Below, piece after piece: positions 490-64,000 of a stretch of DNA of 64,000 bases. How positions within the stretch are numbered: the first letter of the stretch is position 1; every line of letters begins with the position of its first letter. This DNA is from Escherichia phage ST2. The notes beneath the pieces were generated by a model. It searched no databases and had not been told where the DNA came from. It saw only the letters and a program-made list of their open reading frames with translations. The position numbers were made by a program, and so were the translations under genes. The stretch lies in sequence record OM982647. One strand, 5' to 3'.

Positions 490-822
490 TCACTTATAAA
501 GACACGGAATAGCTTTATAGTGGCATGTTACGAATTTCTGTTTAATTTCTTTAGGTTGTTTAAGTCCCAAAGCCACAAATGGATGTGGAACATTTCGAAT
601 TTGTCCAACTGGTAGTGGAGTCAAATCACCGACTTCAACAAAACCTTCAGGAACATCAGGACCTACAGAATGAACTACACATAGTTCAGGAACTTCACCT
701 TGAACACGTTTACCAATCACAAGTCCTGATTCGGTAACTTCTTCATCACCTGCTTGAGCGGGTTCAGAAACCAGAATAACATATTCACCAACAGCACGAA
801 TTGGGAGTTGTACTTCAGACAT
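490..822 (-). CDS. 31: gp31 head-assembly co-chaperonin (GroES-like)
   Basis: 110-aa translation [28 protein letters not shown]... matches recalled T4 gp31 nearly throughout. Confidence 0.9.
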
Positions 823-879
823 CTTATTTCCTTGTTGTTTGACGATAGATTAATAATACCATACTATTCGTAAAGCATA

Positions 880-1188
880 TTACATAAGAAGCAAACGTTC
901 AACCGGAGTACCATCAACCGAAATTACTTTATCAAGGCGGAAAGAACGCCACTGACCTAACTCGGTATCGAATGCTCGAACTGATTCACGAGGTTCATAA
1001 CGAACTTCTGTTGCCGGATTGTTATTTTCATATTTGACTTCAAGTTCATCGCGCGAAGCAAACATAGTGCGTACCTCGCCGTTAGCCTTTTCAAATACAA
1101 CACAATGAACGCCTACAGACAGAATAGTTTTAATACGTTCACGAAGAACCATAGTTTCTTGTTCAGTTAAAATCATATTATTCACCAC
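880..1188 (-). CDS. hypothetical early protein (31.1-like position)
   Basis: 102-aa ORF between gene 31 and cd; tight packing, same strand. Confidence 0.45.
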   Translation of the reverse strand: MVNNMILTEQETMVLRERIKTILSVGVHCVVFEKANGEVRTMFASRDELEVKYENNNPATEVRYEPRESVRAFDTELGQWRSFRLDKVISVDGTPVERLLLM

Positions 1189-1759
1189 AAAAGTTTCGAA
1201 TTTGTTCCCAATTCAGAGAACGAAGATTATTACGAGAGTACTGAATTACTTCAATACCAGCTTGTTTTAGAATGTCGGCCCAATTTTCAGGAGATCTGTC
1301 ATATAATTCTGCGTATACAACCTTTTTAATACCTGACTGCGTAATAGCTTTAGTGCAATCAGGACACGGAGAAAGCGTAGTATATAACGTAGCACCTTCA
1401 ATAGAATTACCTTTACGAGCTGCAAACAAAATTGCATTCAATTCCGCATGGATTTCATTATTAGCAGACCATGCACTATGAGCGGCCCGATGTTCTTTAG
1501 CCAAAACAAAATTATCCACCCGTCCAAATGCTGTAGTGCCTTCTTTATGCCCAGCAACGATGACCGGGCTTGGTTTATTCTTCAACCAACCGTTTTCGGA
1601 TGCATGTTCGCAACAGTTTGTACCACCTGAAGGAGAGCCATTATAACCTGTAGAAATAATGCGTCCATCTTTTTCAATGACGGCACCAACTTTCCATGAA
1701 CAACATTTTGATTCTTGAGAAATCAGATATGCAATCTGAAGGTATGTGCTAGCTTTCAT
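1178..1759 (-). CDS. cd: dCMP deaminase
   Basis: 193 aa with cytidine/dCMP deaminase zinc motifs HAE...PCPDC (EIHAELNAI...SPCPDC); T4 cd position. Confidence 0.9.
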   Translation of the reverse strand: MKASTYLQIAYLISQESKCCSWKVGAVIEKDGRIISTGYNGSPSGGTNCCEHASENGWLKNKPSPVIVAGHKEGTTAFGRVDNFVLAKEHRAAHSAWSANNEIHAELNAILFAARKGNSIEGATLYTTLSPCPDCTKAITQSGIKKVVYAELYDRSPENWADILKQAGIEVIQYSRNNLRSLNWEQIRNFCGE

Positions 1760-2751
1760 TATTGAACCTTATTAATATAAGTTAACAGCTCTTTAGTTTG
1801 TTCCCAACTGATGCACGCATCGGTAATGGAAACGCCATAGGACATATTATCAGAAATTTTTTGATTTCCTTCATGTAGGAATGATTCTATCATAATTCCT
1901 TTGACCAAATCATTAGCTGCTAAATTTTTACCAATACCAATTTGATTGCTATAATGCCCATCAGCGTTTGCATGGCTACAGTCAACCATTACATAATGAT
2001 TCAGACCTACTGCCCTTGCTTTGTTAGAAGCTTCTTGAATATCAGAAGAATGATAGTTCGGGCCGTTGGTCCCGCCACGCAATACGATATGCGTATTCTG
2101 ATTACCTTCAGCTTCAACAATGCCTACAGTACCATCGACGTCCATACCCATATACCGATGAGGCCAGGCGGCACTATACATCGCGTCTGTAGCTACTTTA
2201 ATAGAACCATTGGTTGCGTTCTTGAAGCCTACGCACATCGGTAGACCTGAAGCAATTTCACGATGTGTCTGACTTTCAGTCGTACGGGCGCCAATAGCAA
2301 CCCATGAGAAAATACCAGAAAGATACTTAATCGTGAATGGGTCTAATACTTCAGTTGCTAATGGAAGTCCCATACGTAGAAGTTTACGACACAATGTTCG
2401 TGCAACTATAAGACCGTGGTTCATATCAAAACTTCCGTCAAGATATGGATCATTTACAAGACCTTTCCAACCTACGGTAGTTCGAGGCTTTTCAAAATAA
2501 ACGCGCATCACTAACAGAACATTAGGAAGACGAGTTTGAAGTTCAGCCAGACGTTTGCCGTATTCAACAGCAGCAATAGGGTCATGAATTGAACAAGGAC
2601 CTACAACAATAAGTTTGCGTGGGTCTTCACCATTCATAATCGAATTAACTTGTTCGCGATGAGAAGCCACTTGTGATGCGTAAGCTTCCGACAAAGGAAT
2701 AATCTCAGCCAGTTCTTTTGGAGAAATAAGTTTTCCGACGACAGGTAACAT
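1759..2751 (-). CDS. 3-deoxy-D-arabino-heptulosonate-7-phosphate (DAHP) synthase, class I alpha (AroG/AroF-like)
   Basis: 330 aa; LIVVGPCSIHD, VMRVYFEKPRTTVGWKGL, IGARTTESQ(T)HRE, GFKN motifs align with recalled E. coli AroG over the whole length. Confidence 0.85.
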   Translation of the reverse strand: MLPVVGKLISPKELAEIIPLSEAYASQVASHREQVNSIMNGEDPRKLIVVGPCSIHDPIAAVEYGKRLAELQTRLPNVLLVMRVYFEKPRTTVGWKGLVNDPYLDGSFDMNHGLIVARTLCRKLLRMGLPLATEVLDPFTIKYLSGIFSWVAIGARTTESQTHREIASGLPMCVGFKNATNGSIKVATDAMYSAAWPHRYMGMDVDGTVGIVEAEGNQNTHIVLRGGTNGPNYHSSDIQEASNKARAVGLNHYVMVDCSHANADGHYSNQIGIGKNLAANDLVKGIMIESFLHEGNQKISDNMSYGVSITDACISWEQTKELLTYINKVQ

Positions 2752-2871
2752 AACAATCCTTAGGAGATATAAACAGATTCTGATTCAACAATACCTTTAA
2801 CCGGATTAGACAGGCTAAGTTGGTAGTGCTCAGATTTATGACCATTCTCGATAGTAATTAGATAGCTCTCA

Positions 2872-3108
2872 TTATAGTGTTCCATATACTCGAGTTGCTT
2901 CAACAAGACCATCACTGCCTAATTTAAGATTAGTAATTTGGTCACCATCTTTAGGATTAACGATTATGAGAAAAGAACGTGGAGATTCTTGAATAACTCG
3001 TAATGTTGCATCCTGGAAACGTTCAGATACTTTATTAATCAAAGTCTGAGCGAACTCTTTTACTTTAACATGAAATTCTTGAAGCGTGATAGGTTTTTCA
3101 CTTAACAT
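2872..3108 (-). CDS. hypothetical small early protein
   Basis: 78-aa ORF in compact minus-strand early gene array. Confidence 0.4.
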   Translation of the reverse strand: MLSEKPITLQEFHVKVKEFAQTLINKVSERFQDATLRVIQESPRSFLIIVNPKDGDQITNLKLGSDGLVEATRVYGTL

Positions 3109-3167
3109 TCTGTTTTCCTCATTGTGTTGGTAGAGTCATAGTATCACAACTCCACCATGTTGTAAAC

Positions 3168-3443
3168 TTAAATTGCAAAACATTTAATTTCTTGTGAATC
3201 GAAATCAACTTCGCACTGAATTACTAGTTCAGCATCAAGTCCAAACACAACAATCACATGAGCCGAGCTGGGCAACAGTGTAACAGACACAGAATCCACT
3301 TGGTCAGGCACCAGCGTATTCAAAACGTAGAGTAGTTCAGAGTGGATCTTAAGCTCGGTAGCCGTGTCCAGCTTATCAAAGAAATGATTTGCGATAATCT
3401 GACTAAAAACGACCTTTACAATTTCAGAATATTTAGGGAACAT
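3168..3443 (-). CDS. hypothetical small early protein
   Basis: 91-aa ORF, same strand array. Confidence 0.4.
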   Translation of the reverse strand: MFPKYSEIVKVVFSQIIANHFFDKLDTATELKIHSELLYVLNTLVPDQVDSVSVTLLPSSAHVIVVFGLDAELVIQCEVDFDSQEIKCFAI

Positions 3444-3450
3444 AATTACC

Positions 3451-3675
3451 TCAGTGTACAGTATTTACTTTAACTCGAACAACAAATTGCTCGGTCGGTT
3501 CGCCTACAGGAACAAACTCTACATGATATTCGCCTTTGTAACGAGTATTCAGGTCGTTACGAATTTCGGTAAGCTTGTTGATTAATGTAGAACTCATATT
3601 AAGTCCCACTAGTTTACGAAGCATTTTGTATGCTTCATCTTCGATTTCATGATGTTTATCGCACATAGTTTTCAT
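3451..3675 (-). CDS. hypothetical small early protein
   Basis: 74-aa ORF, same strand array. Confidence 0.4.
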   Translation of the reverse strand: MKTMCDKHHEIEDEAYKMLRKLVGLNMSSTLINKLTEIRNDLNTRYKGEYHVEFVPVGEPTEQFVVRVKVNTVH

Positions 3676-23392: not shown

Positions 23393-26300
23393 ATGGCTAC
23401 TTTAAAACAAATACAATTTAAAAGAAGCAAAACTGCAGGAGCACGTCCTGCCGCTTCAGTATTAGCCGAAGGTGAATTGGCTATAAACTTAAAAGACCGT
23501 GTACTTTTTACTAAAGATGACCAAGGAAATATTATTGATCTGGGTTTTGCTAAAGGCGGTAGTATTGACGGGAATGTTATTCATACAGGCAATTATAACC
23601 AAACTGGCGATTATACTTTAAATGGGGTCTTCACTCAGACTGGTAATTTTAATTTAACCGGTATTGCTCGAGTAACTCGTGATATTATTGCCGCTGGGCA
23701 GATTATGACTGAAGGCGGAGAACTTATTACAAAAAGTTCGGGTACAGCGCATGTTCGTTTTTTCGATGGCAATAGTCGCGAACGTGGAATCATTTATGCC
23801 CCGGCTAATGATGGATTAACTACACAAGTACTTAATATCAGGGTTCAAGACTACGCCGCTGGTAGCGAAAGCACTTATGCATTTTCAGGCAGTGGCCTAT
23901 TTACTTCACCTGAAGTATCAGCATGGAAATCTATGTCAACTCCTCAGATTTTGACTGACAAAGTCATTACAGACGGGAAGAAGACAGGCGATTATGATAT
24001 CTATTCATTATCAAATAACACTCCAATGGCAGAAGGCGAAACGGCTATTAACCACCTCCGTGTTATGCGAAATGCTGTAGGAGCAGGTATTTTCCACGAA
24101 GTTAATGTTAATGACGGAATAACCTGGTATTCCGGAGATGGACTTGACACTTATCTTTGGTCGTTTAACTGGGCCGGTGGATTGAAAGCCGGTCATTCTA
24201 TTTCTGTAGGTCTTCCAGGCGGCCCCAAAGGATATTCTGAATTAGGAACGGCCTCAATTGTTCTTGGGGATAATGATACCGGGCTAAAATGGCATCAGGA
24301 CGGATATTTCTATACAGTAAACAACGGAACAAAAACTTTCATCTATGGTCCAGGAGAAACGCAAAGCCTTAGAAAAATGGTTATGGCTTATTCTCCAGAT
24401 GGGCTTCTTATGACAACGCCGCCGACAGAAAACTATGCTTTGGCTACTGTTGTTACTTACCATGATAATAATGCGTATGGTGACGGTCAAACTCTTTTAG
24501 GATATTATCAAGGTGGTAATTATCATCATTATTTCCGCGGCAAGGGTACCACAAACATTAATACTCATGGCGGTTTGTTAGTTACTCCAGGTAATATTGA
24601 TGTTATTGGCGGTTCTGTTAATATAGATGGTAGAAATAATTCTTCTACACTAATGTTTAGAGGCAACACAACAGGATACAGCTCGGTTGATAATATGGAT
24701 ATTAAAGTTTGGGGTAATACGTTTGTTGATCCAAGCGGAGGTATCCGTAAAAACATTATGGAAATTTCTGATGCAACTAGCTGGATGAGCTATATTCAAA
24801 GACTTACTACTGGCGAAGTAGAAATGAACGTTAATGGTTCATTTGAATCATCTGGTGTTACTGCTGGAGATAGAGGAGTTCACACAACAGGTGAAATTTC
24901 ATCTGGAGCAGTGAATGCTCTTCGTATTTGGAACGCAGATTATGGAGCCATTTTTAGACGTTCAGAAGGAAGTCTTCATATTATTCCAACTGCTTATGGC
25001 GAAGGCAAAGATGGCGATATCGGTCCACTTCGCCCGTTTAGTATGGCTTTAGATACCGGTAAAGTTACTATTCCAGATTTACAATCAAGTTACAATACGT
25101 TCGCTGCGAACGGCTATATTAAATTTGTTGGCCATGGTGCAGGCGCAGGTGGATATGATATTCAATATGCCCAAGCGGCTCCTATTTTCCAAGAAATTGA
25201 TGATGCTGAGGTAAGCAAATATTATCCTATTGTTAAGCAGAAATTTTTACAAGGAAAAGCAGTTTGGTCTTTAGGTACTGAAATTAATTCAGGTACATTC
25301 GTGATACACCATATCAAAGAAGACGGGACTCAAGCTCATACATCAAGATTTAATGCTGACGGTACAGTTAATTTCCCTGATAATGTTCAGGTTGGTGGCG
25401 GTGAAGCTACTATTGCTCGAAATGGTAATATCTTCTCCAACATTTGGAACGTATTTACCTCTGCTGGTGATATAACCAACATTCATGATGCCATTGCCTC
25501 CCGTGTGGCTAAAGAAGGCGACACGATGACAGGTAAGTTGAGTATTAATGCCCCAGACGATGCTTTAGTATTAAATGCTCCTAGTGCAACTAACTCATCT
25601 CATATTCGTTCGACTGTCGCTGGAGCAAATAGCTGGTTCATAGGTAAAGGTGGAGTGTCAGACACCGTATCTTTTTATAACTATAAGTCCCAGACAGGTA
25701 TAGATATATCAGCAGAAGGTAATATTTCATTTAACCCACAATCGGGTAACCTGGTCAGCATGAGCCAGAACCGTATGTATGTTAACGGCGAAAGATGGGT
25801 GGCCACAAACCAAGGTGCAATTAATGTGCAATACGGCGTTGAAGCTCCAGTATTTGTTAACTTAGGCGAGTTAAATGGTAACGTATACTATCCATTGATA
25901 AAGGGTCGAAGCTCTTCCACCGGATATGGTTACCTAAGTAGTGTTGAGCTTGGCCAATTACGTACAGGTGACAATAACTGGGGTATTGGTTGTATAATTG
26001 TTCGCTCGGCTGAAAATACACCAGAACAAGGACATCCGGCAGCAGTATACCAGTTTGACGCTAGAGGTAACTTTAGTGCTCCAGCCGGGGTTTATTCGAA
26101 CGTTAATATGGGCATTGGCACTATTCCTGTATGGGGTGGTCCATCTCTTGCAATCGGCGACAATGATACTGGATTTGTATGGGAAGCAGACGGTATTTTC
26201 AACGCATATGCAAACGGCCAAGGTGTGTTTAGTTTTAGACCTGGTTTAGCTCAGACATTCGGTAATGTTAACTTCCACTGTAATGCAGGTATGTATGTTC

Positions 26301-38394: not shown

Positions 38395-38406
38395 ATTTTT
38401 CTCTCA

Positions 38407-38607
38407 TCACAAGTTACGTTTAAAAATTTCTGCTACTTCAAGAAGTTCTTCTTTAGTAGCTGTATCGGTTTGTATTTTATATCGAATTTCTTTAAAGCGT
38501 TCTTTAAAGGCTTCAGCTGATTCGATATCAAAAAATCTTTGGATAAGACGGAATTCCCGGAGCACTGCTTTATCAAAAAGTTCCAAGTCCACGTTATATG
38601 TTCTCAT
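38407..38607 (-). CDS. hypothetical protein (rIIA.1 position)
   Basis: 66-aa ORF immediately upstream of rIIA. Confidence 0.45.
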   Translation of the reverse strand: MRTYNVDLELFDKAVLREFRLIQRFFDIESAEAFKERFKEIRYKIQTDTATKEELLEVAEIFKRNL

Positions 38608-38632
38608 AATATTCTCTTCAGTAGATTGCTAG

Positions 38633-38683
38633 GGCACTATTACTAAAGACCATATAATTTATCATCTTATATGTAATAGTGCC
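38633..38683. promoter_or_regulatory. 11-bp perfect inverted repeat GGCACTATTAC / GTAATAGTGCC separated by a 29-nt AT-rich spacer
   Basis: seen directly between the glycosyltransferase-like gene stop and the rIIA.1 start. Confidence 0.3.
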
Positions 38684-38699
38684 TCAGGCTATTCAGGAT

Positions 38700-39800
38700 T
38701 TACGCTGTGAAGATTTTATCCCACATCGCAACAACTGCATCTCGATTATACTTCTTCCATACTGCTTCAGCACGTTTAACTCGAGCTTCGTATGTGTCAG
38801 TGAATTCTAATACAGCTTTTGTGTAAAGCGCAACTACTTCTTTCTTAGGAGTAGAGGAATCAATTTCTACACGCACAGTATCTGGGTCGTATTCGAATGT
38901 CGCATGAGGATAATCCTTAAAAACTAACTGGATTACAGGGACACCTTTAGAGATGGCTTCAATAGAACTATTCTCTACCGTACCTGTGTCAGGACACGTA
39001 TTAATAAGTGCTTTAGCTGTTTTAAGACGTTCCATGATTTCACTGTGTGGAGCATCAATAATAACAGGATATTTAGCTGGTGGTGCCCATTTGCTTGGAC
39101 AATAACCAATACCATTTTCGCCTAGTGCTTTAATCGCTTCGAGAGCAACATCAGTACGACGCATTTTAGTGTCATAACGTTGTGCACTAATAATCAGATC
39201 AGTCGCCGGAAGAACTTCAGGTTTCTCATTCAAACAAATAACCGGATAATCTTCGGCTTCAAACAACGGATTTGCTCGCCAATAATCATAATCAATTTTG
39301 TCAGTCAGACCTGAAGTCATATAACAATATTTGCGTTCAAATTCACGGAAGGCTTTAGTAGGAGCATAACTCTTACCACCATTCTTATGAATTTGAATAG
39401 TCTGGTCCCAAATTTGAACAATGCCACGAGATACCGGTTCAAATGGTGTTGCCATAAAATTCTTATGAACTTTAGAGAGACCTGCGTCTTTAATTGCCTG
39501 AACGGTTAGTTTAGTCGGTTCCATAGTAACAACAAAATCGTATTCATGGATGCCGGCTAGTTCAACAATCTTACGAGCCATAGTATAACTCATACCTAGA
39601 CTGAATTTTGTCAGATGACCAACAGGATGGTGTGTAACTTTCCAATCACCAAACGTGTCATTATCAAAGCCGATATAATCAATATCAGCACCGATGGATA
39701 CAAGATATTTCAACACATTTAAATGTACTGCTTCAAGACCACCTTGTACACGGTCAGGGTTAAATGGGACTGCACGAGATGGGATAAACATAACTTTCAT
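38700..39800 (-). CDS. GT-B fold glycosyltransferase-like protein (candidate DNA hydroxymethylcytosine sugar transferase)
   Basis: 366 aa; N-terminal MKVMFIPS...GG.EAV..N.L..L pattern and C-terminal E-x7-E motif TVENSSIEAISKGVPVI typical of GT4-like enzymes; occupies the rIIA.1-to-gene 60 interval. Confidence 0.65.
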   Translation of the reverse strand: MKVMFIPSRAVPFNPDRVQGGLEAVHLNVLKYLVSIGADIDYIGFDNDTFGDWKVTHHPVGHLTKFSLGMSYTMARKIVELAGIHEYDFVVTMEPTKLTVQAIKDAGLSKVHKNFMATPFEPVSRGIVQIWDQTIQIHKNGGKSYAPTKAFREFERKYCYMTSGLTDKIDYDYWRANPLFEAEDYPVICLNEKPEVLPATDLIISAQRYDTKMRRTDVALEAIKALGENGIGYCPSKWAPPAKYPVIIDAPHSEIMERLKTAKALINTCPDTGTVENSSIEAISKGVPVIQLVFKDYPHATFEYDPDTVRVEIDSSTPKKEVVALYTKAVLEFTDTYEARVKRAEAVWKKYNRDAVVAMWDKIFTA

Positions 39801-39826
39801 AATTAAGCCTTATTAAAATTAAAATG

Positions 39827-39844
39827 AAGCTCCCGAAGGAGCTT
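39827..39844 (-). terminator. hairpin AAGCTCCttcgGGAGCTT downstream of topoisomerase gene
   Basis: perfect 7-bp stem with tetraloop followed by U-rich run on minus strand. Confidence 0.45.
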
Positions 39845-41660
39845 AGGACATCCATTCTTTACGAAGTTCTGAATCATCACCCATCAACATTTCAAAGAGT
39901 TCTTTCCAATTTTCAGGAAGTTTAACTACGTCGTACACAGGGTTCTGAATCATTTCACGATATTCTGACTTTTCAAGGGAGCCTAATCCCTTGATGTATC
40001 GAATACTATGCTTAGGCAGTGTATCTTTAACTTCTTCATACTCAGCTACAGTATAAAACCATTTTTGAGTTTTGCCAATTTGTGCAATAATTACAGGCGT
40101 TTTAACAAAGCGAATACGTCCTTGTTCAAACAATTCAGGCCAATTACTAAAGAAAGCAAGCAAAGCCGGATAGATACTTCCAAGACCGTCATGATCGGCA
40201 TCGGTCATAATTGCAATATTACGATAGTTCGTATTCTCTGCCTTTTCACCAAGAATAAGACCTGTGATAGCACAGATATCAAAGAGCTCTTTGTTCTTCA
40301 TCATATCGGCATATGACATACCCCAGCTATTCATCACCTTACCACGTAATGGGAATCCGCCATGTAGTTCACGGTCACGAACATCAATGAGATAACCAAT
40401 TGCCGAATCACCTTCTGTTAAGAACAATGTCGTATCTGCATCTTTACCACATTGGTTAGCTTTAATATGCTTATGAACCTTAGCTTTAGTTGCCTTTTTA
40501 GCTGCTTTAGTTTCTGCAGCCTTTTCTGCTGCCAATTTACGAGCTAATGCTGCTTCAACAATAGGCATAATCAAGGCTTCGTTTTTAAGAAGTGCCTGAG
40601 CAATTTTCTTAGCATCTAATTGGATATGATTACGAATATCACCGTACGTTGACGTTAAACGTTCTTTAGTCTGAGAATCAAAACGCATGTTGCTCATGTC
40701 TCTAATAAACATCAACATTGTGAGGCATTCTTTAACACGAGCTTTAGTGACTTCAATACCCTTATATTTCTTTTTAATACCGGGCAAAAGATGTTCGCAG
40801 ATATCATCCATTACGCATTCAACATGATGACCACCATTTTTAGTATGGATGTTATTCACATAAGTTAAATGTCGGAAGCCATCTGGTGATGTTGTGAATG
40901 CTATAGAGACTTTATCATTTTCTTGAATGATGTTATCTTCGCCAAATTGTTTAGCAAATCGTTTAAAATTACCATCAACCTTTTTACCATTAAATGTGAA
41001 CTTGATATCAGGATAAACGACTGCCAATGTTTGAAGTCGGTCTAAAGTAATATCTAAATAAACTTGAGATAAATTATGCTCTTCAAATGAAGAGAAATCA
41101 GGAGTGAAGATTACTTTAGTGCCTTTACCTTTAGATTTCTTAGAAGACCATGATTTGTTTTCCATTCCATTTGAACAGTTAACAGTGATTTCATTTTCGC
41201 CATCTGACGTGATGCCTGTAAACAACGTAGAGAAGATATTAGTTAAACTACTCCCGACGCCATTCATACCACCAGTCTTGCGTTCAGAGTCATCACCAAA
41301 GTTACCACCTGCCTTTGGAATAGTCCAGGCTGCTACAGGCCCAGGAATTTGTTCACCTGTTTGGTCGGTAACTAAACCTTGAGGAATACCACGTCCGTTA
41401 TCTTCCACCGAAACTTGATTATTTTTAATTTGCACATCAATTTTATTTGCAAACTTAAATGATGTACGAATAGCTTCATCAACCGAGTTGTCAATAATCT
41501 CATCGATTAATTTAACCAGACCAGGAACATATTCAACTTGTTGATATTTACCAAACAAAAAACGCTCGTGGGCTTCTTTAGCCGAAGAACCAATATACAT
41601 ACCACTACGTTTCTTAATATGTTCTACATCTGACAATACCTTAATTTCATTTTTAATCAT
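39843..41660 (-). CDS. 39: DNA topoisomerase II large subunit, uninterrupted gene 39 + gene 60 fusion (GyrB-like)
   Basis: 605 aa; N-terminal GHKL ATPase (IDEIIDNSVDEA, EDNGRGIP, GGMNGVGSS), C-terminal Toprim; no split or bypass element. Confidence 0.9.
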   Translation of the reverse strand: MIKNEIKVLSDVEHIKKRSGMYIGSSAKEAHERFLFGKYQQVEYVPGLVKLIDEIIDNSVDEAIRTSFKFANKIDVQIKNNQVSVEDNGRGIPQGLVTDQTGEQIPGPVAAWTIPKAGGNFGDDSERKTGGMNGVGSSLTNIFSTLFTGITSDGENEITVNCSNGMENKSWSSKKSKGKGTKVIFTPDFSSFEEHNLSQVYLDITLDRLQTLAVVYPDIKFTFNGKKVDGNFKRFAKQFGEDNIIQENDKVSIAFTTSPDGFRHLTYVNNIHTKNGGHHVECVMDDICEHLLPGIKKKYKGIEVTKARVKECLTMLMFIRDMSNMRFDSQTKERLTSTYGDIRNHIQLDAKKIAQALLKNEALIMPIVEAALARKLAAEKAAETKAAKKATKAKVHKHIKANQCGKDADTTLFLTEGDSAIGYLIDVRDRELHGGFPLRGKVMNSWGMSYADMMKNKELFDICAITGLILGEKAENTNYRNIAIMTDADHDGLGSIYPALLAFFSNWPELFEQGRIRFVKTPVIIAQIGKTQKWFYTVAEYEEVKDTLPKHSIRYIKGLGSLEKSEYREMIQNPVYDVVKLPENWKELFEMLMGDDSELRKEWMS

Positions 41661-41710
41661 GTTGTCTCCTCGTTATGAAGGTATTCTATCATCCGAAATC
41701 TAAAGCAAAA

Positions 41711-50308: not shown

Positions 50309-50845
50309 TCAGTAACCATTATCCTGACGTTCAAAGTTGTGTTGGTTTTTCAAGTAGTAAAGTTTAAAGATTTCTTCAGCAGAAAGACCCAGACCTTGGA
50401 ACATATTTAGAACGAAATGCAGAATATCAATCATTTCAAATTTAATTTCAAGTTGGTCTTCAGGAGACAGTTCATCGATACGACGATTTCGATATTCAGC
50501 ATGTTGTGCTTTCCATGGCTTCCAAACACTGCTAGCGGCTTTCTCACCATTGCTCATACCGCCAAGTGAAGTCAACAGTTCACGGAATTCATCATCAATA
50601 TAATCTTTCTGATTACGCAGCCAATCAACAACATCGCCAGCAGTGGCCAATTCATCAGGATGTTTGTTATGTTCAGGCTTGTCATTTGCCAGACGAACCT
50701 GTAAAGATTTCTGCATATCAAGCATTACCTGCAGTGGGTCTTTATCTTCGTGAATCAGAGCATTAAAATAAGCTTCTTCTGCTTTATCAACACCAGAAAT
50801 AAGTTGTGAACATTCGTTAAAGTGTGCCATTATTTTTCCTTTCAA
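50309..50845 (-). CDS. 56: dCTP pyrophosphatase gp56 (MazG-like)
   Basis: 178 aa; position upstream of soc, size near T4 gp56 (171 aa). Confidence 0.7.
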   Translation of the reverse strand: MKGKIMAHFNECSQLISGVDKAEEAYFNALIHEDKDPLQVMLDMQKSLQVRLANDKPEHNKHPDELATAGDVVDWLRNQKDYIDDEFRELLTSLGGMSNGEKAASSVWKPWKAQHAEYRNRRIDELSPEDQLEIKFEMIDILHFVLNMFQGLGLSAEEIFKLYYLKNQHNFERQDNGY

Positions 50846-58698: not shown

Positions 58699-59247
58699 TT
58701 AACGAGCCCATTTGATGATTTCTGTAATCAAACCATTACGTTCGCTTGCATTAAATCCTATAACTTTGTTAGCACCATCATGATTAAGTAATTGATACGT
58801 TTGGATTTTGTTATGAATTGCAAACTCTTCAAAATGTGAAATGACTGTATTAAAACCGAATGAAGACAAAGTAATAAGGTCGTCTTCAAAACTTTCAGTC
58901 ATTTCGTTACGTGTTAAAATAATTGTGAACACATCATGGTTTTGGCAAAGACGAACATAATCCTGTTCATAAACGTCAAGAACAGAGTCCGCATCTTGTC
59001 GAATACGTCCGTAAACCCAGTTACTAATATATCCACGATCTAACAGATAAATCTTAGTAGGGTCTAAATAATTCAACATCGTTTCGAAACAGCCAACTTC
59101 GTTTCGAGACTTAACATCGAAACGTCCATCAACTGTTCGTTTAGGGAAATCAATCTTTACATATCTTTCACTAATTTCCATTATGTCATTAATGAAAGTT
59201 GTTTTACCAGCATTATCCGGGCCATCTACTAAAATAATTTTAGCCAT
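58699..59247 (-). CDS. P-loop NTPase / nucleotide-kinase-like protein at the T4 bgt locus
   Basis: 182 aa; Walker A ILVDGPDNAGKTT at residues 5-17; small size typical of (d)NMP or sugar kinases; no similarity to T4 beta-glucosyltransferase. Confidence 0.55.
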   Translation of the reverse strand: MAKIILVDGPDNAGKTTFINDIMEISERYVKIDFPKRTVDGRFDVKSRNEVGCFETMLNYLDPTKIYLLDRGYISNWVYGRIRQDADSVLDVYEQDYVRLCQNHDVFTIILTRNEMTESFEDDLITLSSFGFNTVISHFEEFAIHNKIQTYQLLNHDGANKVIGFNASERNGLITEIIKWAR

Positions 59248-59248
59248 T

Positions 59249-60148
59249 TTATTCCTCGATTACGACATCTTCATATTTAGGTATATTATACGGTGAAGAA
59301 ATTAAAGCATTAAAGTAGATGAACTCACCAAGACCTGGATGGAATACTTCTTCAGGATTTTCGAAATATTGAATCTTCGGACGTCCTTTAAGAATTTGAT
59401 AGTACTCAGTTTTAGTTGGATTAAAAATTCGAATCAGCGCTTCTTCAGGATACTTATTTCTGTCGAAACTATTATTTGGATCAGTTATATAAAGCGGTTG
59501 ACCTAATTGAATTGCACATTCAACCACTTGTTCAAAACGATAGCACGGGTCACTAATTCGAAATGGATGAAAAATACCATCTAGATGAATAGGAGCCAAA
59601 TCACCTACAAGACGCTGCATGATGGAAGGACGTATAACTTTCTGCGTTACGATAATCTTATTACCATCTGCACCGGCGTTAACCAGCACTTCTTTTTGAC
59701 GTTCATTCAACACAGTAGTTTGAAGTGAACGATTAACCGACAACATATCGGTTTTTAAGAATTCATCAATATAAAAACGTGGTTTATTAGGGTCTGCAGT
59801 GATATTGAAATTGAATTCTACATCAAAAGCACCATCATATCCAGTGATATCTGTGATTAGAAAATCACAATCATAATAAGCAATTAATGAATCAACCACA
59901 AATTCATTTTCAGACCAGAAATATTTACGAGTGTTATACGCGTTATCTTTATACCATAATGGAACAAACTTAAATTCTGGGAAAAGACGTTCACATTCTT
60001 TAATATCAGATGCATTACGTGGATATGTAATCACATCACCTGGATTAGCACGGTGCAAATGAAGTTGGAAGTTGCCATCCTTAAGGATAGCATACTGTCC
60101 AGTTTCATAAGACCGCATACTCAAAATAGGTACGCGGAAAATAGCCAT
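59249..60148 (-). CDS. hypothetical protein, translationally coupled upstream partner of the P-loop protein
   Basis: 299-aa ORF ending 1 nt before the next start; AT-rich T4-like composition; its 5' flank is the abrupt junction with T7-like sequence. Confidence 0.5.
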   Translation of the reverse strand: MAIFRVPILSMRSYETGQYAILKDGNFQLHLHRANPGDVITYPRNASDIKECERLFPEFKFVPLWYKDNAYNTRKYFWSENEFVVDSLIAYYDCDFLITDITGYDGAFDVEFNFNITADPNKPRFYIDEFLKTDMLSVNRSLQTTVLNERQKEVLVNAGADGNKIIVTQKVIRPSIMQRLVGDLAPIHLDGIFHPFRISDPCYRFEQVVECAIQLGQPLYITDPNNSFDRNKYPEEALIRIFNPTKTEYYQILKGRPKIQYFENPEEVFHPGLGEFIYFNALISSPYNIPKYEDVVIEE

Positions 60149-60151
60149 TAG

Positions 60152-60259
60152 TCAAAGCTGCGGAGTTCGGCGTTCCTCGCTCTGGAGGTCAGCAAGCATA
60201 CGCTGTGCCATCTCCGTATCCAGCATCTCCAGCAGCTTGATTAAAGTCTTGTCGCTCAT
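60152..60259 (-). pseudogene. T7-like gene 18 (terminase small subunit) N-terminal fragment, truncated at the chimeric junction
   Basis: MSDKTLIKLLEMLDTEMAQRMLADLQSEERRTPQL then stop; preceded by AGGAGT ribosome-binding site; follows the holin gene as in T7. Confidence 0.5.
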
Positions 60260-60262
60260 AGG

Positions 60263-60466
60263 TTACTCCTTATTTGCACGTTTCCAGTCAATAATCTTAT
60301 CGACTACCTTGGCACCAATCTGAACCACTGTGTAGGCGATAGCTGCAACGTAGAACCATTCGTTGAGTGACAGACCCCAAAAGAGCCTTGCCACACCATC
60401 AGCGCCAGCCACGCCAGCAATCGGTGCAGCCTTTACGATTTCATTGTTAAAATCCAACGACAACAT
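60263..60466 (-). CDS. T7-like class II holin (gene 17.5)
   Basis: 67 aa; MLSLDFNNEIVKAAPIAGV...LSLNEWFYVAAIAYTVVQIGAKVVDKIIDWKRANKE closely matches recalled T7 gp17.5. Confidence 0.85.
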   Translation of the reverse strand: MLSLDFNNEIVKAAPIAGVAGADGVARLFWGLSLNEWFYVAAIAYTVVQIGAKVVDKIIDWKRANKE

Positions 60467-60503
60467 TGTGTCCTCCTAGTGTGAGCCATCCGTGGCCTTG
60501 TTA

Positions 60504-60890
60504 TTAATCCATGTTCTTAAGTTCAGCTAAGAGAGCCTTGAGGTCTTTCTCAATATCCTCTTTGGTTCTCGCATTGACTTCTTCTGGTTTCCTATAGAAC
60601 TTGGAGCCATCCCATAGAACAGTCCCAAGCGGTAAGTCTTCTGGATAAGAGTCCGTAACGATTACATCACCGTGTTCATATGGGGCATAGATGCCATTAA
60701 CGCTTCCCTTAGTGAACCAAGTAACATGACCAGACTCTTGTGTCCCAACCACGTATTTCTCGTCCCTATCGTCCAGTTCAGCCATCAGTTCATACCAATC
60801 TGTACCATCAGAACTCTTTACATCATAGAACTTAGTTCCAGTTTCAGGGTCGGAAACAACCTTAAACTCCCACTTCATGTATTTTCTCAT
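60504..60890 (-). CDS. hypothetical protein in T7-like block
   Basis: 128-aa ORF with AAGGAG ribosome-binding site between tail-fibre remnant and holin. Confidence 0.45.
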   Translation of the reverse strand: MRKYMKWEFKVVSDPETGTKFYDVKSSDGTDWYELMAELDDRDEKYVVGTQESGHVTWFTKGSVNGIYAPYEHGDVIVTDSYPEDLPLGTVLWDGSKFYRKPEEVNARTKEDIEKDLKALLAELKNMD

Positions 60891-60911
60891 TATACATTCT
60901 CCTTATAGTCA

Positions 60912-61620
60912 TCATTCAGTGACCGCCAATCGTCGAGTACCATTCATTGATACACTCCACAGCGGTGAATAGTAAGCGCCGTTAACGCCATGCCCTTGGT
61001 TAAGGTTTAGTCCTTGCAGAATGTGACCAGCGGGAGGGATGGCATCGTACCAACCACCCGGAATTGTAGTCATACTGCGTGCACCAATAACAAGGTTAGT
61101 CGTGAAGTTAGTCTTGCACCAAGTCGTCAAGAAGCCACCATACGCAGACCCCCGGATGTCACCATCACGAGTTAGAGAGAAACCTCTAGACACACTGATT
61201 GCGCCATTATAGTTGAAGTCAAACTGTGCCTCATCCTGTCCACTATTAAATACCCAAAGTCTAGCCAATGGCAGATTAGTAGAGCCTCCGCGAACACCAC
61301 CCAGCTTCCACCAGCAGTCGTACCAGTCACCATTAACAGCGTTAATGAAAGTCCCTTCACCACCAGTGTCCGTAATGAGCCTCATCTCGTTCCTTTCTGT
61401 TCCACCGATATAAACAGTGTGTGAGGTAAGTCCGTCCTTTGGTTTAGAGCGGAAAGCGCCATCGAATGTGTGAGCAGGTGCTTTATAGTCGATACCTACA
61501 GGTGCAACGGCGATTTCTGTTGAGCCGTGTCGAAGGCGCGTGTTTGTGCCAAAATCCACAGAACCACCGTTTCGTCTAGCCAATTGCTCTGGAGACAGAG
61601 CCGGGTGCCGTTGTGTTGCC
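60912..61620 (-). pseudogene. C-terminal portion of a podovirus tail-fibre-like protein (5'-truncated)
   Basis: Gly/Asn/Thr-rich beta-type sequence upstream of the holin in a gene 17-like position; N-terminal codons of the track ORF run into antisense of the gp16 fragment. Confidence 0.35.
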
Positions 61621-61633
61621 TCAAGGTCAAATC

Positions 61634-62992
61634 CTGAGCGACACCAACCCACTGAACCCTCAGACTCTTAGCGAGTTCGAGGCGGTCAACCCTGAGCGTG
61701 CCGCGCGTGGTATCTCTTTGAGTGGTTTCACTGAGATTGGCTTGAAGACTCTCCGCTCTGAGAACCCGACTGTTCGCTCCATTGCAAGTGACCTTGTGCG
61801 TTCTCCAACAGGGATGGAATCAGGCTCTAATGGTAAGTTCGGTGCGACAGCTTCTGACATTAAGGAGCGACTCCATGCGAACAACCAGCGCACCTACAAT
61901 CAGCTTTATGATGCTGTGCGTACTGCAATGAAAGACCCTGAGTTCTCCACAGGTGGTGCCACAATGAGCCGTAAGGAAATCCGACAGGAAATCTACAAGC
62001 GTGCAGCCTTGGCGATTGAGCGACCTGAGCTTCAAGCAAACCTGACAAAGGGTGAGCGGAACGTGATGAACATCCTCAAGCAGCACTTTGACCTCAAACG
62101 TGAAATCATGGAGAACCCGTCAATCTTCGGCAACACCAAGGCGGTCAGCATCTTCCCCGGCTCACGCCACAAGGGAACCTACGTGCCAAACGTGTACGAC
62201 CGCGCTATCAAGATTGAGATGGTTAAACGTTACGGTAATGATGGCTTGCAGCGAGCAATCGCGGAGTCATGGTTGACGTCTTATCGTGCTCGTCCAGAAG
62301 TCAAGGCGAGGGTCGATGAGTACCTGATGGAACTTAACGGTCTCAAATCCGTGCAGGAAGTTACGCCTGAGATGGTGCAGAAGCACGCGATGGATAAGGC
62401 GTATGGTATTTCACACACTGACCAGTTCTCTGCCTCCTCTGTCATTGATGATAAACTTGAGGGTCTGACGGGTATCGAGAACAACAACTTCTTGGAAGCC
62501 CGTAACATGTTCGACAGTGACATGGCGGTGACTCTCCCTGATGGTAACACGTTCTCTGTGAATGACCTGCGTACCTATGACATGGCTGACATTCTGCCTG
62601 CATATGACCGCCGAGTTGATGGGGATGTTGCAATCATGGGTGGTTCCGGTAAGACTACCAAAGACCTGAAAGATGAAATCATGGCGCTGGATGCGCAGTC
62701 AGAGGGCAACGGCACATTGAAAGGTGAAGTGGAAGCTCTCAAGGACACCGTGAAGATTCTGACTGGTCGTGCTCGTAGGAACCCGGAAGGCGCTTGGGGC
62801 ACAGCCCTGCGCTCCGTCAATGACCTTACGTTCTTCGCTAAGAACGCCTACATGGGTGCGCAGAACCTTACTGAAATCGCTGGTATGCTGGCGAAAGGTA
62901 ACGTCTCTGCGATAACTCATGGCATCCCTATGATTAACGATTGGGTCAACCGTGGTAAACCGCTTCGTGCCTCTGAGATTAATACGTCATAG
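61634..62992 (+). pseudogene. internal fragment of T7-like gp16 (internal virion protein D), truncated at both ends
   Basis: NPLNPQTLSEFEAVNPERAARGI...VRSPTGMESGSNGKFGATASDI...AIMGGSGKTTKDLKDEI...FFAKNAYMGAQNLTEIAG matches the middle of recalled T7 gp16; no lytic-transglycosylase N-terminus or C-terminus. Confidence 0.8.
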
Positions 62993-63213
62993 CTCATAGG
63001 CTTACTGCCTCCTGTACGTCTTCTCGTTGATAACTTTGCTTCACGCTCTTTGTTTGCGGGTACTCGATGTTCACACACGAAGCACCATTCATGCCCGTCA
63101 GAGTACACAGAGTTACCATCAGAAGACCCACAGTTTTCACATGGAGCATGAAACAGAAAGATACTATCGTCTTCTCGTTCCATTGTACATTCCTTAATCA
63201 GTTGCGAGAACAA
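62982..63213 (-). pseudogene. T7-like gp4 primase-helicase N-terminal zinc-ribbon fragment, truncated after about 77 codons
   Basis: IFLFHAPCENCGSSDGNSVYSDGHEWCFVCEH matches T7 gp4 N-terminus; similarity ends where the gp16 fragment begins. Confidence 0.8.
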
Positions 63214-63228
63214 AGGGAAACCGTTAAG

Positions 63229-63251
63229 TCTCCCTTTAGTGAGTGTTAATT
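63229..63251 (-). promoter_or_regulatory. T3-type single-subunit RNA polymerase promoter AATTAACACTCACTAAAGGGAGA
   Basis: one mismatch to recalled T3 consensus AATTAACCCTCACTAAAGGGAGA; between gene 3.5 and gene 4 remnants. Confidence 0.55.
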
Positions 63252-63361
63252 ATTCCTCGGTGTGTTCCTCCGCCTTGATTGGGTCTTTGCACTGACACTG
63301 ACGTGACGGTACACGACTCTTCAACGGCTTATCACAGCGAATACAAATCATCCTCATGGTA

Positions 63362-63817
63362 TCACCCTCGGTCAGATGTAACCAGTTCGTTCTTCTCCCA
63401 CCAGCGCTTCAAGTCGAAGGACGGGCAGGCTTTGGGTGCAACGTCATGGTGAGCACGAAGGACTGAACCCTCATACTTCACCAGCAGCGTGACCAGCAGA
63501 CTACGCAGCGCTTGCATTTGCGCAGGTGTAAAGTTGGCGTCGAACTTGCCTTTATCATCAATCCCACCCACGAGGCATACGCCTACGGAGTTGTGGTTGT
63601 AACCTTTAACGTGGGAACCTACAGCCAGTTCATCGCGGCCTGCTTCCACAGTGCCATCACGCTTGATGATGAAGTGATATCCTACGTCTAACCAGCCCTG
63701 CTCTTTGTGCCACTGACGAATCTCACGAACGCCAATGTTCTGGCTTGGCTTGGTTGCTGAGCAATGCACAAAGATTGCCTCCGTGGTTTCTCGTGGTTTG
63801 AATTGAACTTTAGCCAT
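63362..63817 (-). CDS. T7-like lysozyme / N-acetylmuramoyl-L-alanine amidase (gene 3.5)
   Basis: 151 aa; AIFVHCSATKPSQN, GYHFIIKRDGTVEAGRD, APKACPSFDLKRWWEKNELVTSDRG match recalled T7 gp3.5 at roughly 90 percent. Confidence 0.9.
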   Translation of the reverse strand: MAKVQFKPRETTEAIFVHCSATKPSQNIGVREIRQWHKEQGWLDVGYHFIIKRDGTVEAGRDELAVGSHVKGYNHNSVGVCLVGGIDDKGKFDANFTPAQMQALRSLLVTLLVKYEGSVLRAHHDVAPKACPSFDLKRWWEKNELVTSDRG

Positions 63818-63989
63818 TTTTCTTTACTCCTTTCTTAGTCTTAAATTTATCGAACGGAACCTCCTTCTTGGGTTCTTTGAGCCACTCCACCGGAATTAGC
63901 TTGTCAGCAAACAGAATGCCATGCTTCTCACACCACTCGGCGTAGCTTGTCGGACTACCCTTGTAGAGCTTTGAGCGGCTGCTTGTGCT
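63810..63989 (-). pseudogene. T7-like endonuclease I (gene 3) C-terminal fragment
   Basis: KLYKGSPTSY..CEKHGI.FADKLIP.EW.KEPKKEVPFD matches T7 gp3 C-terminus; overlaps gene 3.5 start; in-frame TAG at about 63990..63992 then window ends. Confidence 0.6.
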
Positions 63990-64000
63990 CTAGTTTCTAC

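What the first reader, a model, noticed from the sequence alone, without database searches (positions are those of the whole stretch)
38700..39800. Glycosyltransferase-like gene between rIIA.1 and the fused topoisomerase gene: candidate non-canonical DNA sugar-modification enzyme
The 366-aa product has the N-terminal pattern and the C-terminal E-x7-E signature (TVENSSIEAISKGVPVI) of GT-B/GT4 sugar transferases. The phage carries the genes that imply cytosine-modified DNA (alc, denA, gene 56 dCTPase, cd), yet the T4 bgt position after uvsX holds unrelated genes (58699..60148), and T4 has no glycosyltransferase at this locus. RB69-type phages are reported to arabinosylate hmC with a non-T4 transferase; whether this ORF is that enzyme or something new cannot be decided from sequence alone.
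Basis: partly seen in the sequence, partly recalled or inferred. Interest (0 to 1): 0.75.

Follow-up and report, generated by a model that had tools for sequence, protein, structure and literature searches.

The report
Known phage DNA arabinosyltransferase (RB69 gp3)
This gene is a near-identical copy of phage RB69's ORF003c, an already described and crystallised sugar-transferring enzyme that most likely adds a second arabinose to the phage's modified cytosines, so the finding is real but not new.

Summary
The ORF is real: window 38700..39800, minus strand, 366 aa, between rIIA.1 and the fused topoisomerase gene. It is 363/366 identical to RB69 ORF003c (gp3) and about 99% identical to the crystallised "phage HY126 glycosyltransferase" (PDB 9IQZ; 9IR0 with UDP). 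Beyond those two structures, every other listed fold-search hit is a GT-B glycosyltransferase.

The gene was proposed as the RB69 arabinosyltransferase in 2018. Work from 2025-26 revised the chemistry. The base is 5-hydroxycytosine, not hmC, and RB69 DNA carries beta-D-Araf-(1->3)-alpha-D-Araf-O5-dC. gp3 is now proposed to add the second arabinose. Its Acinetobacter phage paralogues, DLP3 gp76 and gp77 (40-43% identical), together extend arabinosylated DNA in vitro using UDP-Araf.

- The C-terminal motif is E-x4-E, with Gly at the first Glu position, not E-x7-E.
- The acceptor is not hmC.
- The "unrelated genes" after uvsX are the pathway partners: a nucleotide kinase and the proposed first arabinosyltransferase.

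The window is also a composite. Mosigvirus sequence stops at about 60155 and scrambled T3-like fragments follow, so the rest of the pathway is not visible here.

Verdict: already known, low interest.

The parts
38700..39800 (-). 366-aa gp3-type GT-B glycosyltransferase, orthologue of RB69 ORF003c and of the phage HY126 glycosyltransferase. Proposed second DNA arabinofuranosyltransferase.
   Evidence: ORF. 363/366 identical to RB69 ORF003c. About 99% identical to PDB 9IQZ/9IR0. phrog_8302, full length, E 1e-222. 43% identical to DLP3 gp77 and 40% to gp76. Apart from 9IR0/9IQZ, all listed Foldseek hits are GT-B enzymes.
39808..39811 (-). Shine-Dalgarno-like AAGG, 7 nt upstream of the ATG at 39800
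   Evidence: Read directly from the sequence.
39827..39844 (-). UUCG-tetraloop hairpin (AAGCUCC-UUCG-GGAGCUU) that starts in the topoisomerase stop codon, in the 42-nt spacer before the glycosyltransferase gene. Possible terminator or RNA-stabilising element.
   Evidence: Terminator-like site in the consensus scan and the sequence itself. Function not tested.
59249..60148 (-). 299-aa partner enzyme, orthologue of RB69 ORF046c+047c and DLP3 gp79. Proposed first (alpha) arabinosyltransferase acting on 5-hydroxycytosine.
   Evidence: DNA 98.5% identical to the RB69 ORF045c-048c region. 46% identical to DLP3 gp79. phrog_3891, E 1.5e-155. Role as proposed in PMC13326640.
58699..59247 (-). 182-aa thymidylate-kinase-like nucleotide kinase, orthologue of RB69 ORF045c and DLP3 gp78, part of the arabinosylation cluster
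   Evidence: phrog_761 thymidylate kinase, E 5.7e-45. Synteny with RB69 and Bas46.
50309..50845 (-). dCTPase (gene 56), which removes dCTP so that only modified dC enters phage DNA. The exact start codon is uncertain.
   Evidence: phrog_173 nucleoside triphosphate pyrophosphohydrolase, E 1.8e-45. Synteny with Bas46 dCTPase/dCDPase.

Best explanation
The ORF encodes the Mosigvirus gp3-type DNA arabinofuranosyltransferase. It is a two-domain GT-B enzyme that binds a UDP-sugar in its C-terminal Rossmann domain. It most likely transfers D-arabinofuranose from phage-made UDP-Araf onto O3 of the alpha-arabinose already attached to 5-hydroxycytosine in replicated phage DNA. That converts 5-ara-dC into the disaccharide beta-D-Araf-(1->3)-alpha-D-Araf-O5-dC, which shields the genome from DNA-targeting host defences. 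The first arabinose would be added by the 299-aa transferase encoded after uvsX.

Shown here: orthology, GT-B fold neighbourhood, conserved motifs, synteny and phyletic pattern.
Taken from the literature: the product chemistry, the UDP co-crystal of a 99%-identical protein, and the in vitro chain-extending activity of the 40-43% identical paralogues.
Inferred: that this particular protein performs step two, and which residues bind the donor.
For: - Identity: 363/366 identical to RB69 ORF003c, about 99% identical to PDB 9IQZ and 9IR0, 'phage HY126 glycosyltransferase', apo and with UDP, and 100% identical in phage vB_EQ1.
- Fold: the AlphaFold2 model matches 9IR0/9IQZ with TM 0.70-0.72. All other hits listed (ranks 3-50 of 355 with E<=0.001) are GT-B glycosyltransferases such as PimA, BshA, MshA and BH4 glucosyltransferase, from E 3e-9.
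- Motifs: G20-G21 loop, R208 and R214, and N267-T-C-x-[DN]-T-G-T-V-E276-N-x-S-x-E281-A-I-S-x-G286-x-P-V are conserved across the family.
- Chemistry: RB69 and Mosigvirus NP DNA contain mono- and di-arabinosylated 5-hydroxy-dC, and the NMR structure is beta-D-Araf-3-alpha-D-Araf-5hodC (PMC13326640; PMC13390438).
- Role: the NAR 2026 authors assign gp46:47 as transferase 1 and gp3 as 'beta-arabinosyltransferase 2'.
- Paralogue biochemistry: DLP3 gp76 plus gp77 add a third arabinose to RB69 DNA from UDP-Araf in vitro. In DLP3 these genes sit inside the arabinosylation cluster.
- Phyletic pattern: the 299-aa transferase occurs in 348 phage records across many host genera, including the mono-pentosylated Shewanella phage Thanatos. 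The gp3 type occurs in 211 records, all from Mosigvirus (Escherichia and Shigella, one copy, di-arabinosylated) or Acinetobacter phages (two copies, tri-arabinosylated) apart from a handful labelled only 'phage' or 'Tegunavirus'.
- Genetics: deleting 'the arabinosyltransferase Aat' in Bas46 gave a viable phage that became sensitive to a defence system (as cited in PMC13216743). This fits a non-essential add-on enzyme, but the accessible text does not say which gene was deleted.
Against: - In the text I could read, no direct assay of the Mosigvirus gp3 protein is reported. The NAR 2026 table marks only the DLP3 paralogues as experimentally confirmed.
- The two papers most likely to hold the direct data, He et al. 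2026 (Nat Chem Biol) and Mahler et al. 2025 (Cell Host Microbe), are not held in the library.
- In DLP3, neither the gp3-type enzymes nor gp79 alone modified 5hoC-DNA, so the first step is itself unproven.
- The protein fails sequence-model membership of GT4: no Pfam hit at E<=10, and no detectable similarity to T4 alpha-GT or beta-GT with a shallow profile.
- My model has low confidence (mean pLDDT 58.9).
- The window does not contain the 5hodCMP synthase or the UDP-Araf genes, because the Mosigvirus sequence ends at about 60155.
Confidence: 0.75

Rival explanations
1. It is the primary transferase, attaching the first arabinose directly to the modified cytosine. This was the original 2018 proposal and is how Bas46 and Bas47 are annotated ('putative hmC-arabinosyltransferase').
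For: Thomas et al. [quoted passage not shown] The BASEL annotations follow this. The first-step enzyme has not been shown biochemically in the accessible literature: DLP3 gp79 alone was inactive on 5hoC-DNA.
Against: The 299-aa gp46:47-type transferase is the one conserved in all arabinosylating lineages, including a phage with a single pentose. The gp3 type is missing from about 137 of the records that carry it. gp3-type copy number tracks the number of extra arabinoses: one in di-arabinosylated RB69, two in tri-arabinosylated DLP3. The DLP3 gp3-type paralogues act on DNA that is already arabinosylated. The 2018 proposal predates the discovery that RB69 ORF046c and 047c are one gene encoding a glycosyltransferase.
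Confidence: 0.15
2. It is a GT-B glycosyltransferase acting on a non-DNA acceptor such as a host envelope glycolipid or a protein, or it uses a sugar other than arabinose. On this view its link with DNA modification is coincidental.
For: The nearest structural neighbours outside phages are lipid or small-molecule glycosyltransferases: PimA, BshA, MshA. In Mosigvirus the gene lies about 20 kb from the arabinosylation cluster.
Against: In Acinetobacter phages the homologues are embedded in the arabinosylation cluster and act on DNA with UDP-Araf in vitro. In the phage collection the family occurs almost only in Mosigvirus and Acinetobacter phages, the two groups that also carry the first transferase. 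It is extremely narrow: 5 clusters among 5.8 billion proteins and 11 of 1.84 billion representatives.
Confidence: 0.05
3. It is a diverged T4-type hmC glucosyltransferase (alpha-GT or beta-GT class) making glucosyl-hmC.
For: It shares the GT-B fold class with T4 alpha-GT and beta-GT. Some Acinetobacter phage records annotate the homologue as 'putative DNA alpha-glucosyltransferase'.
Against: No profile similarity to T4 alpha-GT or beta-GT. RB69-type DNA contains arabinose on 5-hydroxycytosine and no glucosyl-hmC. The RB69 thymidylate synthase homologue gp48 makes 5hodCMP, not hmdCMP.
Confidence: 0.01

Closest known systems
RB69 ORF003c / gp3 (NP_861693.1), 'beta-arabinosyltransferase 2' in Lee et al., NAR 2026; first proposed by Thomas et al. 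2018
   Same: Same length (366 aa), 363/366 identical, and the same position between rIIA.1 and the fused gene 39. This is the same gene in a sister phage.
   Different: Three substitutions (T56N, I231A, T327I, window residue first). None falls in a family-invariant column.
Phage HY126 glycosyltransferase, PDB 9IQZ (apo) and 9IR0 (UDP complex), released 2025-07-16
   Same: About 99% identical over all 366 residues. My model superposes with TM 0.70-0.72. The structure gives experimental support for the fold and for UDP binding.
   Different: Four substitutions. I could not read the associated paper, probably He et al. 2026, so I do not know what activity was shown.
Acinetobacter phage DLP3 gp77 and gp76 (arabinosyltransferases 2/3)
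   Same: Full-length homologues, 43% and 40% identical, sharing the G-G loop, R208/R214 and the T-G-T-V-E-N-x-S-x-E-A-I-S-x-G-x-P-V motif. Together they add arabinose from UDP-Araf to already arabinosylated DNA in vitro.
   Different: Two tandem copies inside the arabinosylation cluster, against one copy at a remote locus here. The DLP3 product is a trisaccharide. Both proteins were needed together for activity.
T4 alpha- and beta-glucosyltransferases (a-gt, b-gt)
   Same: GT-B fold class. They use a UDP-sugar donor and act after replication on a hydroxylated cytosine derivative in phage DNA, with an anti-restriction role.
   Different: No sequence or profile similarity detected here. They use glucose rather than arabinofuranose, and hmC rather than 5hoC or a sugar acceptor. 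They lie at different genomic loci.
T2/T6 beta-1,6-glucosyl-alpha-glucose transferase (ba-gt, 'TAGT'), which makes gentiobiosyl-hmC
   Same: A functional analogue: a second transferase that extends a monosaccharide already on phage DNA into a disaccharide. This comes from established knowledge and PMC13216743.
   Different: Different sugar, linkage and protein. The sequence relationship was not tested here.
Bacterial GT4-type GT-B enzymes (PimA 2GEJ/4NC9, BshA 3MBO, MshA 3C4Q)
   Same: The best non-phage structural neighbours (E 3e-9 to 7e-7, TM about 0.5, 12-13% identity). They share the E-A-x-x-x-G-x-P-V half of the C-terminal motif.
   Different: No Pfam GT1/GT4 hit. The first Glu of E-x7-E is replaced by Gly273, with an invariant Glu276 three residues later. 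The acceptor is DNA-linked sugar, not a lipid or small molecule.

Membership tests
gp3-type phage DNA arabinosyltransferases (RB69 ORF003c / HY126 GT / DLP3 gp76-77; PHROG 8302) | Full-length sequence homology to RB69 ORF003c | tested here: met
   363/366 identical. phrog_8302 E 1e-222 over residues 1-366. PDB 9IQZ E 6e-251.
gp3-type phage DNA arabinosyltransferases (RB69 ORF003c / HY126 GT / DLP3 gp76-77; PHROG 8302) | Mosigvirus synteny: the gene lies between rIIA.1 and the fused gene 39 topoisomerase subunit | tested here: met
   Bas46 and RB69 have the same gene order.
gp3-type phage DNA arabinosyltransferases (RB69 ORF003c / HY126 GT / DLP3 gp76-77; PHROG 8302) | GT-B two-Rossmann fold with a UDP-binding C-terminal domain | tested here: met
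   Apart from 9IR0/9IQZ, all listed Foldseek hits are GT-B enzymes. The 99%-identical 9IR0 entry is a UDP complex. My own model has low confidence (pLDDT 58.9), so this rests mainly on the solved structure.
gp3-type phage DNA arabinosyltransferases (RB69 ORF003c / HY126 GT / DLP3 gp76-77; PHROG 8302) | Co-occurrence with the 5-hydroxycytosine arabinosylation pathway (first transferase, kinase, 5hodCMP synthase, UDP-Araf genes) | tested here: inconclusive
   The first transferase (59249..60148) and the kinase (58699..59247) are present. The 5hodCMP synthase and sugar-nucleotide genes cannot be seen because the Mosigvirus sequence ends at about 60155. They are present in every close relative examined.
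gp3-type phage DNA arabinosyltransferases (RB69 ORF003c / HY126 GT / DLP3 gp76-77; PHROG 8302) | Transfers arabinofuranose from UDP-Araf to arabinosylated 5hoC in DNA | not testable with these tools
   In the accessible literature this is shown in vitro only for the DLP3 gp76+gp77 pair.
CAZy GT4 / Pfam Glycos_transf_1 (PF00534) retaining glycosyltransferases | Match to the Pfam GT1/GT4 models above the gathering threshold | tested here: not met
   No Pfam families at E<=10. Diverged family members give only sub-threshold GT4-conflict or Glycos_transf_1 hits of 12.6-17.1 bits, against cut-offs of 26-27.
CAZy GT4 / Pfam Glycos_transf_1 (PF00534) retaining glycosyltransferases | C-terminal E-x7-E motif | tested here: not met
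   Only the second Glu (E281) is present. Gly273 sits at the first-Glu position and E276 gives E-x4-E. The distant borderline hit P0015 does carry a literal ETAGYAVFE at the aligned position.
CAZy GT4 / Pfam Glycos_transf_1 (PF00534) retaining glycosyltransferases | GT-B fold, closest to GT4 structures | tested here: met
   PimA, BshA, MshA and PglA are among the best non-phage Foldseek neighbours.
T4-type DNA hmC glucosyltransferases (alpha-GT, beta-GT) | Sequence or profile homology to T4 a-gt or b-gt | tested here: not met
   hhalign probability 0.2% for both. The family profile is shallow (Neff 1.6). Thomas et al. report a remote HHpred match to 1XV5 at the fold level.
T4-type DNA hmC glucosyltransferases (alpha-GT, beta-GT) | Acts on 5-hydroxymethylcytosine with UDP-glucose | not testable with these tools
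   Published nucleoside analyses of RB69 and Mosigvirus NP find arabinosyl-5-hydroxy-dC, not glucosyl-hmC.

The most novel reading that the evidence does not exclude
The gp3-type proteins may be a distinct glycosyltransferase family: GT4-like in fold, but with the catalytic E-x7-E rebuilt as G-x2-E-x4-E, making a beta-(1->3)-arabinofuranosyl linkage onto a sugar that projects from duplex DNA. If so, their mechanism (inverting versus retaining, with or without base flipping) could differ from both GT4 enzymes and the T4 DNA glucosyltransferases. This would be new only if He et al. 2026 and the 9IQZ/9IR0 structures have not already settled it.
Probability: 0.1. Interest if true: 0.35.

Novelty: already known. 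Interest (0 to 1): 0.15.

Why it matters
Arabinosylated 5-hydroxycytosine lets Mosigvirus phages escape restriction enzymes and DNA-targeting CRISPR systems, and the number of arabinoses changes which defences work. That matters for choosing therapeutic phages and for sequencing or engineering them. This gene is the likely determinant of the second sugar. All of that is already in the literature. This copy only shows that the source phage is a typical RB69/PhAPEC2-like Mosigvirus that should carry di-arabinosylated DNA. The practical lesson for the scan is that the sequence-only reader correctly spotted a highly diverged glycosyltransferase that Pfam misses.

Tried and rejected
- Pfam scan of the protein: no hits at E<=10. 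Sequence models cannot place it.
- hhalign of the six-sequence family profile against T4 a-gt, T4 b-gt and the window's 299-aa transferase: no similarity. I treat this as weak negative evidence because the profile is shallow (Neff 1.6).
- Broad homologue searches, to find a bridge to bacterial GT families. Only 5 clusters and 11 representatives were found. The one borderline outlier, P0015 (E 5.6e-4), has sub-threshold Glycos_transf_1 hits and a literal E-x7-E. It is suggestive but not proof.
- AlphaFold2 on the shallow alignment gave a low-confidence model (pLDDT 58.9). It was usable only because the solved 9IR0/9IQZ chains came back as an internal control.
- A full-text search for the PDB codes returned only unrelated chemistry papers. 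A search for the Afh gene names returned only the NAR paper and noise.
- He et al. 2026 and Mahler et al. 2025 are not held. I therefore could not establish which HY126 Afh protein or which Bas46 Aat gene corresponds to this ORF.
- I considered whether the junction at 60155 could be a real recombinant that lost the 5hodCMP synthase. I rejected this as unlikely because the tail is three scrambled T3-like fragments on both strands.

Full report
**1. The observation**

An ATG-initiated ORF of 366 codons lies at exactly 38700..39800 on the minus strand. It has an AAGG Shine-Dalgarno sequence 7 nt before the start codon. Downstream lies rIIA.1 (38407..38607; Pfam T4_RIIA1, E 3.7e-30) followed by rIIA. 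Upstream lies a 605-aa GyrB-like topoisomerase subunit (39843..41660), the fused 39/60 form.

GC content across the gene is 0.38-0.40, like its surroundings. T4 has nothing but genes 60, 60.1 and mobA between rIIA.1 and gene 39.

**2. Identity of the phage and the gene**

The DNA at 38300-41700 is 99.2% identical to Escherichia phage vB_EcoM_PhAPEC2, and 151 phage records carry the whole locus. The window is collinear with BASEL phage Bas46, where the gene is annotated "putative hmC-arabinosyltransferase".

The protein is 100% identical in phage vB_EQ1 and at least 95% identical in about 155 Mosigvirus records. It is 363/366 identical to RB69 ORF003c. It is about 99% identical over its whole length to a solved structure, listed as "phage HY126 glycosyltransferase": 9IQZ (apo) and 9IR0 (with UDP), released July 2025.

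**3. Is it a glycosyltransferase?**

Simple sequence models say nothing. Pfam gives no hits even at E<=10, and PHROGs places the protein in a family of unknown function. The family is tiny and isolated: 5 clusters among 5.8 billion proteins, and 11 of 1.84 billion representatives with a profile search. A shallow family profile shows no similarity to T4 alpha-GT, T4 beta-GT or the window's other transferase.

**4. The motif claim**

The quoted peptide is at residues 274-290. It is the GT4-like C-terminal motif only in part. The family conserves N267-T-C-x-[DN]-T-G273-T-V-E276-N-x-S-x-E281-A-I-S-x-G286-x-P-V.

E281 aligns with the second Glu of E-x7-E, but Gly273 occupies the first-Glu position, and an invariant Glu276 lies three residues further on. 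The spacing is therefore E-x4-E. A distant borderline relative, P0015, which has sub-threshold Glycos_transf_1 hits, carries a literal ETAGYAVFE at the aligned position. This shows what the ancestral motif probably looked like.

R208 and R214 are invariant just after the first strand of the C-terminal domain. I infer from general GT-B knowledge, not from a test, that they contact the diphosphate and that E281 contacts the ribose of UDP.

**5. What the literature now says**

- Thomas et al. 2018 found arabinose in RB69 DNA and proposed ORF003c as the arabinosyltransferase (PMC6024577).
- Lee et al. 2026 showed that the base is 5-hydroxycytosine, made as 5hodCMP by the thymidylate synthase homologue gp48. 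RB69 DNA carries mono- and di-arabinosylated forms, the latter being beta-D-Araf-(1->3)-alpha-D-Araf-O5-dC (PMC13326640).
- The same authors found that RB69 ORF046c and 047c are one gene encoding a glycosyltransferase. They propose it as transferase 1 and gp3 as "beta-arabinosyltransferase 2".
- He et al. 2026 characterised the HY126 pathway (Afh proteins), and Mahler et al. 2025 named the transferases Aat. Neither paper is accessible here.

**6. Evidence for the chain-extending role**

First, the closest relatives outside Mosigvirus are DLP3 gp77 (43% identity) and gp76 (40%). They sit inside the arabinosylation cluster, next to the kinase, the first transferase and the 5hodCMP synthase.

Second, together these two proteins add a third arabinose to RB69 DNA from UDP-Araf in vitro. 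Individual transferases did nothing on bare 5hoC-DNA.

Third, the phyletic pattern fits. The 299-aa transferase occurs in 348 phage records from Escherichia, Acinetobacter, Klebsiella, Serratia, Enterobacter, Proteus, Yersinia, Edwardsiella and Shewanella phages, including the mono-pentosylated Thanatos. The gp3 type occurs in only 211 records, all from Mosigvirus (Escherichia and Shigella) and Acinetobacter phages apart from a handful labelled only "phage" or "Tegunavirus". It is present as one copy where the DNA is di-arabinosylated and two copies where it is tri-arabinosylated.

Fourth, an Aat deletion in Bas46 was viable but defence-sensitive. This fits a dispensable add-on enzyme, although the accessible text does not say which gene was deleted.

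**7.

The ORFs at 58699..59247 and 59249..60148 are not unrelated. They are orthologues of RB69 ORF045c (thymidylate-kinase-like; phrog_761) and of ORF046c+047c / DLP3 gp79 (46% identity). They are the partner enzymes of the same pathway.

**8. A limit on the context: the window is a composite**

Similarity to Mosigvirus genomes stops at about 60155, 7 nt beyond the ATG of the 299-aa gene. In RB69 the 5hodCMP synthase gene follows at that point. GC content rises there from about 0.35 to about 0.5.

What follows is three pieces of a T3-like (Teetrevirus) genome in scrambled order and orientation:
- 60154-60527: holin and small terminase, reversed, continuing into a tail-fibre-like ORF.
- 61587-62982: an internal piece of gp16.
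- 62982-63980: primase N-terminus, endolysin and endonuclease I, reversed.

This looks like concatenated contigs or a misassembly. It is why the rest of the pathway cannot be checked in this window.

**9. Verdict**

The finding is a correct detection of a very diverged glycosyltransferase, but the gene is already known. It was predicted in 2018, crystallised with UDP in 2025, and placed as the probable second DNA arabinofuranosyltransferase of the 5-hydroxycytosine pathway in 2025-26.

My confidence is about 0.99 that it is the RB69 gp3 orthologue, about 0.9 that it arabinosylates DNA, and about 0.75 that it specifically performs the second step. Novelty: already known. Interest: low.

Noticed in passing
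window 60155..64000: The window is a composite. RB69-like Mosigvirus sequence ends at about 60155 and GC rises from about 0.35 to about 0.5. Three T3-like (Teetrevirus, e.g. Shigella phage CT02) fragments follow in scrambled order and strand: 60154-60527 (holin and small terminase, reversed, 85% identity), 61587-62982 (internal part of gp16, 98.5%), and 62982-63980 (primase N-terminus, endolysin and endonuclease I, reversed, 88%). This is probably concatenated contigs or a misassembly of a mixed phage sample. It removes the 5hodCMP synthase and UDP-arabinose genes from view.
   Followed up: yes
window 60504..61652 (minus strand): Inside the T3-like tail, a 128-aa ORF (60504..60890) and a 246-aa tail-fibre-like C-terminal ORF (60912..61652) have no DNA match to phage CT02 and no Pfam hit. 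They may be a divergent receptor-binding tail-fibre tip plus an accessory gene.
   Followed up: partly
window 38608..38699 (minus strand): The 92-nt spacer between the glycosyltransferase stop codon and the rIIA.1 start codon folds into a long hairpin (GGCACUAUUAC...GUAAUAGUGCC). Its MFE is -25.2 kcal/mol, z = -3.4 against shuffles. It has no U-tail, so it is not a classic intrinsic terminator. Function unknown.
   Followed up: partly
window 1759..2751 (minus strand): A 330-aa ORF next to cd matches PHROG 5045, 'phospho-2-dehydro-3-deoxyheptonate aldolase' (a DAHP or KDO8P synthase-like auxiliary metabolic gene), with E 3e-182. Because KDO8P synthases consume arabinose 5-phosphate, a link with the phage's arabinose metabolism is conceivable. 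This was not examined.
   Followed up: no
L007 (Shigella phage JK45, MK962757) 601..2204; phage LH01 (PP434429) 2523..3619: JK45 carries the intact 366-aa gene plus a duplication of about 500 bp covering its 3' end and the spacer, annotated as a 136-aa ORF. In LH01 the gene aligns in two pieces over 1097 nt, which implies a 1-nt deletion or frameshift. If these are real rather than sequencing errors, LH01 would be a natural knock-out in which to test for mono-arabinosylated DNA.
   Followed up: partly
window 59249..60148 versus RB69 24597..25497 (L001 9650..10550): The window has one continuous 299-aa ORF where the RB69 reference record has two (ORF046c and ORF047c). This independently supports the published view that the RB69 split is a sequencing error.
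   Followed up: yes
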